Translations under genes and position numbers: made by a program
Assembly: GCA_051362555.1 (NCBI GenBank)
Contig: CM120646.1
Span: 20,150,001 to 20,214,000 of the forward strand
DNA: 64,000 nt
Source of the DNA: Lingula anatina
Taxonomy: Eukaryota > Animalia > Brachiopoda
Reading direction: 5' to 3'
The notes under the pieces: generated by a model
Database searches by the model: none
Seen by the model: the letters and a program-made list of their open reading frames with translations, nothing else
What the model was told of the DNA's origin: nothing
Part shown: piece after piece, positions 25,501 to 28,500 of the stretch
Position numbering within the stretch: the first letter of the stretch is position 1
Layout of the letters: each line of letters opens with the position of its first letter

Positions 25501-28500
25501 TTATTCAATGTTTGCAGGAATGTAGACATAAATACCGAGTTATTAACCATAGTCTGAATCAAGCAATCCGATTGGATCTGGCCTCTCATTGGTCAGGGTG
25601 TAAGCCAATCACTGTTGACGGCCAACGCAAATTGCGTTGTCGTGGATCTAGGAACTTTAAGGCTCCTAGAGATAGATGGTGGTATATTGCAGTCAGTAAT
25701 TGTAGCACAGTGAAGGTAAGACAGTAGGTGATTGGTCAGTGGGGATCGCAGAGGCAGCTCACTGCACTGAAGCTGATTTCTGTCGGTGATTTAAACCCCG
25801 GAAATTAACTTGGTCTGCAAATTGATCATATTTTTATAACTCCCTTGCACTGTACATGTTTTGGGTTGAGCTGGGATTTATTTGATGTAAATAAATTACT
25901 GTCTATGCACAAAGTACATGGCAGTGAAGCAGGAATAATCCTTGGCTCTTGGTATAAGTGCATTGCAGTGTAAGGTGTGGTCGCAAGCCAAAAGAAAAAA
26001 AAAAAAAAAAAAAAAAGACAAGGGAGAGAAAAGAAAAAAGATCACCAGGCAAAATCAGCTTCTAATTATGTGCATTTTCCAAATCGGCTGTTCTCTGCTG
26101 TAATTTTTGTCACCTATGTAGAGCTAGTTAGCACTGTCTTATCAGTTTGATCATACTTCTTATTTTGATTATTTTCTAGACATGCTCAGAAAAGAAAGTG
26201 CCCATTGATGACGCTCGAAACCAGAAAATTACTTTATCAACTTCTTACTACTGGGCTGGCTGTAAATATGACACCACGCGGCGGCCCGGCCGACCCGTTT
26301 ACGTTTGCCAGGGCGGACGAACTTTCAAATCGTATCGCGCTCGATGGTGGTTTATTGGGTTGGCTAATTGCAGTACCACCAAGGTAAACGTCCACTGTGC
26401 TAACATGGTGCCCTAATGTGTTGTAGAACTAATATATCTTTTTTTTTCTTTTTTTGAGTGTCTGTGTGTTTTTTTTTATCACTCATACACCTAACACTAC
26501 CAAGCATGCCTTTGGTAATAGCTAGATTGAATTTTATACTAACAAAAGCCTACTAGGTAGATGTGAGCCTAGACTAATTAGCATTTTATCAATATATCAA
26601 TCTTGCACTTTTTTCACTTCTTTTTATTTATTCTTTCATTTGCGCTACAGGCTCAATTGAAAGGTTGTACTAATACCCCATGTTAACATTATTTGTATGC
26701 AAATTGACCTCGTGAATTGATTTGAAATCTATTAGTATATATTTGGAATAATATTCTTTGTGAATTGTGAATGAATTTTGCTTGTTGGATTTTTCTACTG
26801 GAATGCAATGATAATGCAAAACAATCATTCTTTTATATTTCCACAATTTGAAAAAAAAAAATTCCCTCTCCTTTTTGTTGTCGATAACAAACTAACTTTC
26901 CAACTCTTGTGATAAAACTATTTCCTTTATAAAACATCAAGGATTAAGTCATAATGATTTTGCAAAGATGGCAAGCTGATTTAATTGTCACGCAATGAAA
27001 AAGCTTTGTTCAGTTTTTACCCCAAAGAACTCGCTATGTCTGCTTTATGTGGAAGTGAACCACTTTTGTGAATTTCCTTACTAATGTTGTTTCTGATTAT
27101 AGTGAAACTAAGTTGCTTTTGAAAGCTTGAAGAACTGTGGTTGCCCTGTTGTAGGTTTAGAAGTCATCAATGTGGCTCTTTCGTCTTTTCTGCTTCTGCT
27201 GAACATTTGATTTGCTTTGTATATGTAAATGTAATTGGAGCTTTTTTTATCAATAAAAAAGACAAAATATTCAAATGCATGGATTTAACTTTATTTGCCT
27301 ATATTTTGATTTTTGTTTTGATGCAATAAACATTCTCTTCCATATGTTAATTTTGTATATTGCTTAGAAAAAGTACTTGCTTCTGTTGCAAAAATGGTTT
27401 AATTATTTTGGGCAAACTTGGCTCATATAACATGATTTAAATTAATCTTTGTCTTGGTCATGTACTATATGACAGTTGACTGTTGTCTGTAATTGGATAG
27501 AAGCAGTATACACATGTACACACACACACACATGCATGCCCGCAGGCATTCATGTACCCATATCGGTTTGATAGCTCAGACTTTCTGCTCTTCACATTAG
27601 CATACACACACATGTACGCACTCCCACACACACTTTTCTGCATGTTCAGACTTGCTGCAGCTGGTTGCTCAGCTAATATCACTAAGTTGGTGACGGGTTT
27701 TATTTACAGCTTTTTAGGCGTAAGGCTTTAGCAATATACCTAAGTTATATAACTTTACTATTATGGTTTGAGAGTTTCAACTGTGTTATTACAATGCAGG
27801 AGACTTCTGTCCCTTCACAAGTTTACCACAAGGGACTGCTGTAAACGAGCTTAATTAATTAACAGTATTGAGCACACAATAGTTAGTTAAGTAAAGCAGT
27901 TTTCAATTTCTCAAACCATACTGGTTCAGTTGTATCACTGAGATATAAAACTCGGATGATTGCTTTTTAGAAATATCTTGGTGATTCTTTACAGCTCTGC
28001 TTCTTATTTTTGCAGTGTACTTATTTTTCTGTAAAATGACAATTTCTTTAAATAGTGACAATGTTTTTATGTATTTTCAATTTTATGTCTTGTATTCATG
28101 TGTTTCTCCTAAATATGTTAATTGAATAAAAATAATTTCTCCAGAGAAGCTGCTGTAAATAGAATTAAATTAACCAGTTAGGATTCTCAGTGTTAGCATT
28201 ATTTAACCATTTAATGTGTTAACAATATCTTTTTCGTATAAATTATGGGACATTTTGCCTTAATTTTTAAATGTGAGACATCATATGCAAATATTTATCA
28301 CATTTAGTAGTACTTTTTAAAAAGTCCATCACAACATTGTTTTCAGGGTCTACAACTGGAGTACAGACTACATATGACAAATTCCAAAAATAATACCTTC
28401 TTTAGAGAATTTTCAGCGGATGAGTTCTGTAAGTACCATGGTTTTGTTATACAACTTGTATAGCTGTAAAATAATATATCATTGCTCAAACAAGTCACAT

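What the first reader, a model, noticed from the sequence alone, without database searches (positions are those of the whole stretch)
25715..26143. The 4A-4B intron folds into one long hairpin that sequesters the exon 4A splice donor
Nested pairings seen on the sense strand: donor G|GUAAGACAGU (25715-25725) with ACUGUCUUAUC (26133-26143); UAGGUGA (25725-31) with UCACCUA (26110-16); GCAGAGGCAGC (25748-58) with GCUGUUCUCUGC (26087-98); GAAGCUGAUUU..GGUGAU (25769-90) with AUCACC..AAAUCAGCUUC (26041-62); CCUUGCACUGUA (25843-54) with UGCAGUGUAAGG (25964-75, two G-U pairs); GAGCUGGGAUU with AAUCCUUGGCUC; apical stem near 25897-25927. Deviations are mostly G-U wobbles, which suggests selection on RNA rather than a decayed DNA palindrome. 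Established: RNA pairing enforces mutually exclusive splicing in Dscam, 14-3-3 and Mhc. Inference: the stem blocks U1 binding at 4A and brings that donor next to the 4B branch region, preventing 4A-4B joining and acting as the switch.
Basis: partly seen in the sequence, partly recalled or inferred. Interest (0 to 1): 0.85.

Follow-up and report, generated by a model that had tools for sequence, protein, structure and literature searches.

The report
Intron fold-back masks duplicated exon's donor
In the TMEM145 gene of the brachiopod Lingula, the intron between two duplicate exons is predicted to fold back and cover the first exon's splice site, which likely stops the two copies being joined and favours the second copy, the only one seen spliced in the RNA checked.

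Summary
The window holds Lingula anatina TMEM145. Exons 4A (25518-25715) and 4B (26180-26383) are old duplicates (42% identical), both multiples of 3, 464 nt apart, so neither frameshift nor a short intron stops them joining. The fold-back is more than chance (z -5.0 sense, -3.0 antisense). Its 11-bp base pairs the 4A donor (probability 0.94-0.99) with a strand ending 7 nt before the likely 4B branch point. One named helix is not in the fold, the middle is loose, and the G-U argument is weak. RNA reads show only 3-4B-5 (20 of 20 listed exon-3 joints go to 4B; no read crosses the 4A donor), so 4A looks repressed, but mutual exclusion is not shown. No competing partner was found, so it reads as a lock, not a Dscam-type switch. 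Exon-4 arrays recur in nemerteans, clams, annelids and amphioxus, yet 0 of 7 of their introns tested fold end to end, and a diverged Lingula sample shows no clear extra conservation. Likely a lineage-specific splicing lock (about 50%); function untested. The scan noted a similar donor-covering duplex in an arthropod FoxP gene.

The parts
24060..24137 (+). TMEM145 coding exon 3 (upstream shared exon)
   Evidence: exact match to RefSeq isoforms; RNA joints to 4B
25518..25715 (+). exon 4A, 198 nt, phase 0-0, second half of the TMEM145 N-terminal (GOLD) domain; intact, not seen spliced
   Evidence: Pfam PF21892 positions 60-123, E 1e-17; keeps all 12 invariant columns of a 14-sequence alignment; AG and GT ends; no spliced reads
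25715..25725 (+). 4A donor (-1 to +10), 5' strand of the basal helix
   Evidence: pairs with 26133-26143, probability 0.94-0.99
25715..25792 (+). 5' arm of the lower stem
   Evidence: arm-arm complementarity beats 300 of 300 shuffles at three gap settings
25843..25975 (+). upper stem and apical loop, weaker (helix probabilities 0.5-0.87)
   Evidence: arm complementarity matched by 2-36 of 300 shuffles
25976..26038 (+). loose, A-rich, largely unpaired segment between the two stems
   Evidence: centroid structure; helix probabilities 0.25-0.28
26039..26143 (+). 3' arm of the lower stem; 26133-26143 is the anti-donor strand
26147..26151 (+). probable 4B branch-point motif TTGAT (A at 26150), 7 nt after the stem; second candidate 26165-26169
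   Evidence: motif scan and AG-free zone 26146-26177; inferred, no lariat data
26180..26383 (+). exon 4B, 204 nt, phase 0-0, the copy in use
   Evidence: Pfam PF21892 E 3e-18; 100% match to RefSeq X1-X3; 20 joint reads from exon 3 and 19 loose ends reading into exon 5
28347..28428 (+). TMEM145 coding exon 5 (downstream shared exon)
   Evidence: its first letters are the loose-end consensus after 4B

Best explanation
The 464-nt intron between duplicate exons 4A and 4B of Lingula TMEM145 is predicted to fold end to end, and the fold likely acts as a splicing lock that hides the 4A donor, blocks 4A-4B joining and makes 4B, the only copy seen spliced, the default. Shown: the two intact duplicate exons in one frame, the complementarity, and use of 3-4B-5. 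Predicted: the donor is nearly free while the intron is being made and is closed once 26133-26143 appears; folding then leaves about 8 nt between donor and probable 4B branch point instead of about 435. Inferred: a donor that escapes is too close to that branch point to be joined to 4B; 4A would be included only if U1 captures its donor during the roughly 420-nt transcription window, or a protein or helicase opens the stem, and would then be spliced to exon 5. It is a lock with a timing-dependent leak rather than a pair of competing structures.
For: Fold z -4.98 sense against -2.96 antisense. A neighbouring decayed inverted repeat in intron 2 folds equally on both strands (-154.1 and -153.7; z -6.6 and -9.1; 6 G-U, 6 A-C), whereas this one is strand-biased and patchy. 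The intron's two ends pair at -63.4 against a null of -39.2 (z -5.45, 0 of 200); 10 other TMEM145 introns give z -1.5 to +1.2. The helix starts exactly at donor position -1, a property of 1 of 97 GT[AG]AG sites. Cost of opening the donor (-3..+6): 0.4-5.0 kcal/mol before the 3' strand is made and 9.0-11.2 after; 5.4-11.3 over six contexts against 2.0-6.6 for 16 values from eight other donors. The usual guards are missing: both exons are multiples of 3, both ends are GT-AG, and the AG-free zone is only 32 nt, which argues against a distant branch point. RNA: 20 of 20 listed joints from exon 3 go to 4B, 19 loose ends run 4B to 5, depth is zero across the 4A donor in all 3 RNA runs, although 4A has the stronger U1 match (-9.5 against -6.8). 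One protein model per exon-4 variant is the rule in relatives.
Against: No functional or probing data. 4A inclusion was never seen (upper 95% bound about 14% from 0 of 20; only 6-25% of three runs of unknown tissue were read), so 4A may simply be near-silent. A diverged Lingula sample shows 30 changes in 475 nt over 4A plus the 5' arm and apex, and 13 in 386 nt over the 3' arm plus 4B, against 69 in 1061 nt over exon 3 and intron 3 (Fisher p 1.0, and 0.5 for the non-exonic upper bound); the positions inside the stem were not shown, so covariation is untested. 0 of 7 inter-copy introns from other animals (6 independent) and the gene's own 6A-6B intron fold end to end. 4 of 148 tiles in the window fold about as strongly. 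The opening cost falls to 5.4 kcal/mol in one of six contexts, inside the range of ordinary donors. One database model (P0004) joins 4A to 4B. The G-U excess is weak evidence.
Confidence: 0.5

Rival explanations
1. The fold-back is a functionless remnant (an old decayed inverted repeat or chance complementarity), and 4A is kept low by proteins or is a fading exon.
For: Other strong fold-backs exist in the window (4 of 148 tiles; inverted repeats). No excess conservation in run X10. Absent from homologous introns. The inner part AGACAGT...ACTGTCT is flanked by TA on both sides.
Against: The base coincides with the donor (1 of 97 sites) and ends 7 nt before the probable branch point. Strand bias and gap-rich pattern differ from the control repeat in intron 2. 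Single copy at 85% likeness in X10 and no second copy in the window. 4A keeps all 12 invariant residues.
Confidence: 0.24
2. It is one state of a competing-structure switch like Dscam or ATE1; a partner elsewhere pulls away one arm and frees the 4A donor.
For: A 19-nt stretch around the anti-donor strand pairs with 23886-23903 at -19.1 against -17.7 for its own partner, and the donor strand with 30641-30660 at -20.0 against -18.8.
Against: Shuffled queries do as well in 7 of 60 and 18 of 60 trials. Whole arms pair at -77 with each other and at best -54 elsewhere in 186 windows. The first partner would loop out exon 3 and 4A; the second would mask the donor again.
Confidence: 0.1
3. The stem is an ADAR substrate, and A-to-I editing in or near the donor helix tunes the donor, as at the GluA2 R/G site.
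For: Long imperfect duplex that includes donor adenosines; precedent in PMC3553983 (passages).
Against: Only the last exon base is in the stem, so no recoding site is offered. No A>G change is listed in the two runs closest to the reference, but they have no coverage over the stem, so editing is untested.
Confidence: 0.08
4. The fold shortens the intron and helps 4A splice to 4B, giving a protein with a tandem half-domain.
For: P0004 joins 4A-4B in frame; two other unnamed-function models join 3 units.
Against: No 4A-4B read. P0004 also repeats exons 3-4A-4B, which the window holds once, so it looks like a prediction on a duplicated assembly (inference). 0 of 18 isoform groups show two units in one isoform. 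Each exon is half a domain. The donor is buried and the folded distance is under the 50-nt limit (PMC5740500, passages).
Confidence: 0.05

Closest known systems
Dscam exon 17 pair (Yue et al. 2013, RNA Biol 10:1822; title seen in reference lists; paper not held; content recalled)
   Same: Two duplicated exons; exclusion by steric hindrance combined with RNA structure that masks a splice site (recalled).
   Different: There the short donor-to-branch distance is in the sequence (recalled); here it would exist only after a 464-nt intron folds. No mutational test here.
Human ATE1 exons 7a/7b, R1R3/R3R4 (PMC7797038; abstract and sections 14, 19 read)
   Same: Pairing within the intervening intron hinders a splice site of a duplicated exon; outcome depends on co-transcriptional folding.
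   Different: ATE1 masks 3' splice sites with two competing helices conserved across vertebrates; here a donor is masked, no competitor was found and no conservation was shown.
Docking-site/selector and bidirectional pairing: Dscam 4/6/9, 14-3-3zeta, Mhc, srp (PMC4691838 abstract and passages; PMC6071210 passages)
   Same: Intronic pairing around tandem duplicated exons.
   Different: Those pairings span an exon and activate the chosen copy by approximation; this one lies inside one intron and covers a donor.
Donor-masking stems of tau exon 10 and SMN2 exon 7 (PMC9311317, passages)
   Same: The 5' splice site is sequestered in a stem that limits U1 access.
   Different: Those regulate cassette exons; here the partner strand is 420 nt away beside the next exon's branch point, between duplicated exons.
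GluA2 R/G duplex before flip/flop (PMC3553983, passages)
   Same: A duplex covers a splice donor next to mutually exclusive exons.
   Different: It covers the donor of the shared upstream exon and is an editing substrate; no editing was seen or testable here.

Membership tests
Mutually exclusive exon pair (criteria of PMC5740500) | Neighbouring homologous exons of similar length in one reading frame | tested here: met
   42% identity, E 8e-18; 198 and 204 nt, phase 0-0
Mutually exclusive exon pair (criteria of PMC5740500) | Junction reads that bridge over the upstream copy (3 to 4B) | tested here: met
   20 joint reads in 3 of 3 RNA runs
Mutually exclusive exon pair (criteria of PMC5740500) | Junction reads that bridge over the downstream copy (4A to 5) | tested here: inconclusive
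   none; zero depth over the 4A donor among 79 laid reads, too few to exclude rare or tissue-specific use
Mutually exclusive exon pair (criteria of PMC5740500) | No reads joining the two copies | tested here: inconclusive
   none seen, but 4A was never seen included; model P0004 joins them
Competing RNA structure (docking site/selector, ATE1 type) | One element with two alternative, mutually exclusive partners | tested here: not met
   best alternatives matched by 7 of 60 and 18 of 60 shuffled queries
Competing RNA structure (docking site/selector, ATE1 type) | Paired elements conserved or covarying across related species | tested here: inconclusive
   no excess conservation in aggregate counts from X10, positions not shown; 0 of 7 introns of other phyla
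Competing RNA structure (docking site/selector, ATE1 type) | Disrupting and compensatory mutations change and restore exon choice | not testable with these tools
   needs a minigene
Classic steric hindrance | Donor to branch point under about 50 nt in sequence | tested here: not met
   about 435 nt; AG-free zone only 26146-26177; about 8 nt only after predicted folding
Frameshift/NMD-guarded pair | Joint inclusion shifts the frame | tested here: not met
   both exons are multiples of 3
Multicopy MITE | Many similar copies in the genome | tested here: not met
   flat depth and one contig over each arm at 85% likeness; no second copy in 64 kb; older copies cannot be excluded, no genome held
Multicopy MITE | Terminal inverted repeats with target-site duplication | tested here: inconclusive
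   TA flanks 25719-26139 on both sides, but TA is self-complementary and any stem through it looks the same
Known structured RNA family | Rfam match | tested here: not met
   no match over the intron at E up to 1

The most novel reading that the evidence does not exclude
The intron was once a 41-nt spacer that blocked 4A-4B joining by length. An inverted-repeat element landed in the TA of the 4A donor, and its fold-back was kept because it rebuilds the short donor-to-branch distance in RNA and supplies a closable donor. Exon choice for the cargo-binding GOLD domain would then be set by transcription timing alone, with no competing structure: a domesticated insertion acting as a steric lock.
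Probability: 0.12. Interest if true: 0.7.

Novelty: new variant of a known kind. Interest (0 to 1): 0.43.

Why it matters
If the lock is real, it is a compact case in which folding turns a long intron into a sterically blocked one, explaining exclusion for an exon pair with none of the usual guards. It could be tested with a few point mutations. Separately, the exon it controls encodes half of the TMEM145 GOLD domain, which binds stereocilin in mammals (PMC12789471, passages). Swappable versions of that exon in brachiopod, nemertean, bivalve, annelid and amphioxus genes suggest cargo-specificity variants; searches listed no paper on this.

Tried and rejected
No whole genome is held, so copy number rests on X10 contigs and the window. 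Rfam gave nothing over the intron. A protein search with 4A alone found no hit (weak by the tool's own note). No RNA holder was listed among indexed runs. RNA reads were laid only on 23950-26420, so use of 6A/6B and joints into exon 5 were not examined directly; 91 variant rows were not shown, which left covariation untested. Distant branch point near the 4A donor: rejected, many AGs lie between the motifs at 25773-26062 and the acceptor. Homology between this intron and the intron-2 repeat: none (67 and 109 of 200 shuffles as good). Competing partners: not above controls. Tree of 41 exon-4 units: largely unresolved; 4A and 4B group in 0 of 200 bootstrap trees but a single clade is not rejected (p-AU 0.22), so the age of the duplication is open. 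In one search three control donors (6A, 6B, 9) and one (9) were set one base off; searches use corrected 6A and 6B ends. The Dscam exon 17 paper is not held. No supplements were read. No structure or complex prediction was run.

Full report
Locus. The two exons around the finding both match Pfam TMEM145_N positions 60-125 of 131. The downstream one is 100% identical to Lingula anatina TMEM145 RefSeq isoforms. Mapping those proteins gives coding exons 3 (24060-24137), 4B (26180-26383) and 5 (28347-28428), and 4A at 25518-25715. 4A and 4B are 42% identical, 198 and 204 nt, both phase 0-0 with GT-AG ends. All 3 RefSeq isoforms held use 4B and none uses 4A. A fourth record, P0004, reads 1-2-3-4A-4B-3-4A-4B-5 with one residue differing between its two 4A copies; the window holds that block once, so I take it as a prediction on a duplicated assembly (inference).

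The observation. The quoted strings are in place. The sense strand folds at -130.3 kcal/mol, z -4.98, 0 of 100 shuffles as good; the antisense strand at -99.5, z -2.96. The basal helix joins donor positions -1 to +10 to 26133-26143 with probability 0.94-0.99 in three contexts. The lower stem (25715-25792 with 26039-26143) is well defined, the upper stem (25843-25975) moderately, and the part between is loose. The first 83 and last 130 nt of the intron pair at z -5.45 (0 of 200), whereas 10 other TMEM145 introns range from -1.5 to +1.2. 1 of 97 GT[AG]AG sites has such an anti-donor strand. Against over-reading: 4 of 148 tiles in the window fold at z -4.9 or lower, one of them over a TA run, and this tile was centred by design.

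RNA-level or DNA-level. A control lies 2 kb upstream: the inverted repeat at 23689-23967 folds equally on both strands, has 6 G-U and 6 A-C oppositions and few gaps, as a decayed DNA repeat should. The 4A-4B fold is strand-biased, gap-rich and not among the inverted repeats that blastn listed. G-U exceeds A-C 11-17 to 2-4, but arm composition alone gives 75%, and another repeat is as skewed in the antisense direction, so this is weak support. Contigs of DNA run X10 lie on the intron at flat depth (about 30-48, against 41 in intron 3), one over each arm, which argues against a young multicopy element.

What the RNA does. In three RNA runs from three studies (6%, 6% and 25% read; 20, 11 and 48 reads laid; tissues unknown), the listed joints from exon 3 all go to 4B (1, 5 and 14 reads), and 19 loose ends after 4B read into exon 5. 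Depth over the 4A donor and most of the intron is zero in all three. The few reads on the 5' part of 4A appear from the depth table to continue from intron 3, so look unspliced. 4A use is therefore under about 14% in these samples, although its U1 match is stronger than that of 4B and it keeps all 12 invariant residues of the family alignment. This fits repression of 4A. It does not validate mutual exclusion, which needs 4A-5 reads (criteria in PMC5740500, passages).

Mechanism. The ordinary guards fail: joint inclusion keeps the frame, both introns ends are GT-AG, and the branch point is probably A26150, about 435 nt from the donor, with no long AG-free zone. Folded, the donor sits about 8 nt from that adenosine, well under the 50-nt limit. 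Opening the donor costs 0.4-5.0 kcal/mol until the anti-donor strand is transcribed and 9.0-11.2 afterwards; over six contexts 5.4-11.3, against 2.0-6.6 for eight other donors. The inferred working is a lock: late closure hides the donor and makes 4A-4B joining impossible, and 4A could be chosen only by early U1 capture or by a factor that opens the stem. I looked for a competing partner. The best candidates (23886-23903 for the anti-donor strand, 30641-30660 for the donor strand) are matched by 7 of 60 and 18 of 60 shuffled queries, and whole arms pair far better with each other than with anything else.

Conservation. The exon array is widespread. Of 18 isoform groups, 5 show swapped exon-4 units (Lineus with three variants, Dreissena, three Branchiostoma groups) and none shows two units in one isoform. 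2 of 115 further proteins, both hypothetical models (Mactra, Paralvinella), string three units together. 4 of 32 metagenome loci carry 2-4 tandem copies, all 11 multiples of 3. The fold is not shared: 0 of 7 inter-copy introns (6 independent) pair end to end (z -1.8 to +1.2), nor does Lingula 6A-6B. Such structures are said to be rarely conserved over long distances, so this weakens without refuting. Within Lingula, X10 differs at 30 of 475 places over 4A, 5' arm and apex and 13 of 386 over the 3' arm and 4B, against 69 of 1061 over exon 3 and intron 3; no constraint is evident, and the positions were not shown. A tree of 41 units cannot date the duplication.

Origin. The segment 25719-26139 begins AGACAGT, ends ACTGTCT and has TA on both sides, the left TA being positions +2 and +3 of the donor; removing it with one TA would leave a 41-nt intron. 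That would explain why both ends of the fold meet splice signals, but TA is self-complementary, no family was found, and the patchy arms fit a transposon poorly. It is kept as the bold reading.

Comparison. It works like donor-masking stems (tau, SMN2; PMC9311317 passages) combined with steric exclusion (Dscam exon 17; title seen only, content recalled). It fails the tests for a competing-structure system, classic steric hindrance and an NMD guard. Searches on TMEM145 with alternative splicing (11 papers listed), Lingula with mutually exclusive exons, TMEM145 structure and brachiopod splicing with RNA structure listed nothing on this locus; only listings were seen, and subscription journals are mostly not held.

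Verdict. Real, above-chance, well-placed fold; probable splicing lock (0.5); function, conservation and use of 4A unproven. New variant of a known kind, interest 0.43.

Noticed in passing
window 29835-29906 and 30547-30618: A second duplicated pair in TMEM145 (6A/6B, 72 nt each, phase 1-1, first transmembrane helix). RefSeq X1 and X3 use 6A, X2 uses 6B. The 640-nt intron does not fold end to end; the 6B acceptor sits in a predicted local hairpin. No swapped exon 6 was seen in the 18 isoform groups of other animals.
   Followed up: partly
L004 2521-6139; L013 2988-4268; L014 1675-2950; L022 1420-4773: Tandem arrays of 2-4 TMEM145 exon-4 copies in bivalve-like and annelid-like contigs; the three L022 copies group with the three Paralvinella units in order. 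Predicted stems cover the downstream acceptors in L013 and L022 (significance not tested).
   Followed up: partly
window 23689-23967: Decayed inverted repeat (106-nt arms, about 75% alike) in intron 2, ending about 90 nt before exon 3; the strongest fold in the window, symmetric on both strands.
   Followed up: partly
window 30649-30659: Perfect 11-nt complement of the 4A donor (-3 to +8), 30 nt after the 6B donor; 0.06 matches expected per shuffled window, but its pairing energy is matched by 18 of 60 shuffled queries.
   Followed up: partly
window 26144-26145: An AG directly after the stem, whose pyrimidine run lies in the anti-donor strand; the stem may also hide this cryptic, frame-shifting acceptor.
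   Followed up: no
window 32754-38897, - strand: Apparently intact LINE in TMEM145 intron 8: a 1266-aa open frame with endonuclease and reverse transcriptase, and a 422-aa upstream frame with a coiled coil and a UPF0029 (Impact-like) domain.
   Followed up: no
window 41442-41477 and 41643-41708: Alternative last coding exons of TMEM145 (X3 against X1 and X2).
   Followed up: no
window about 2900-10300, + strand: Exons reading like the PP2A scaffold A subunit (label recalled from the translations, not searched).
   Followed up: no
window about 51100-63500, + strand: Tandemly repeated segments about 8.4 kb apart, 76-90% alike, encoding a chitin-binding CBM_14 domain.
   Followed up: no
P0004 against window 24060-26383: Database model repeats exons 3-4A-4B twice, with Asn against His at one 4A position; probably two haplotypes in an older assembly, though a back-spliced origin was not excluded.
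   Followed up: partly
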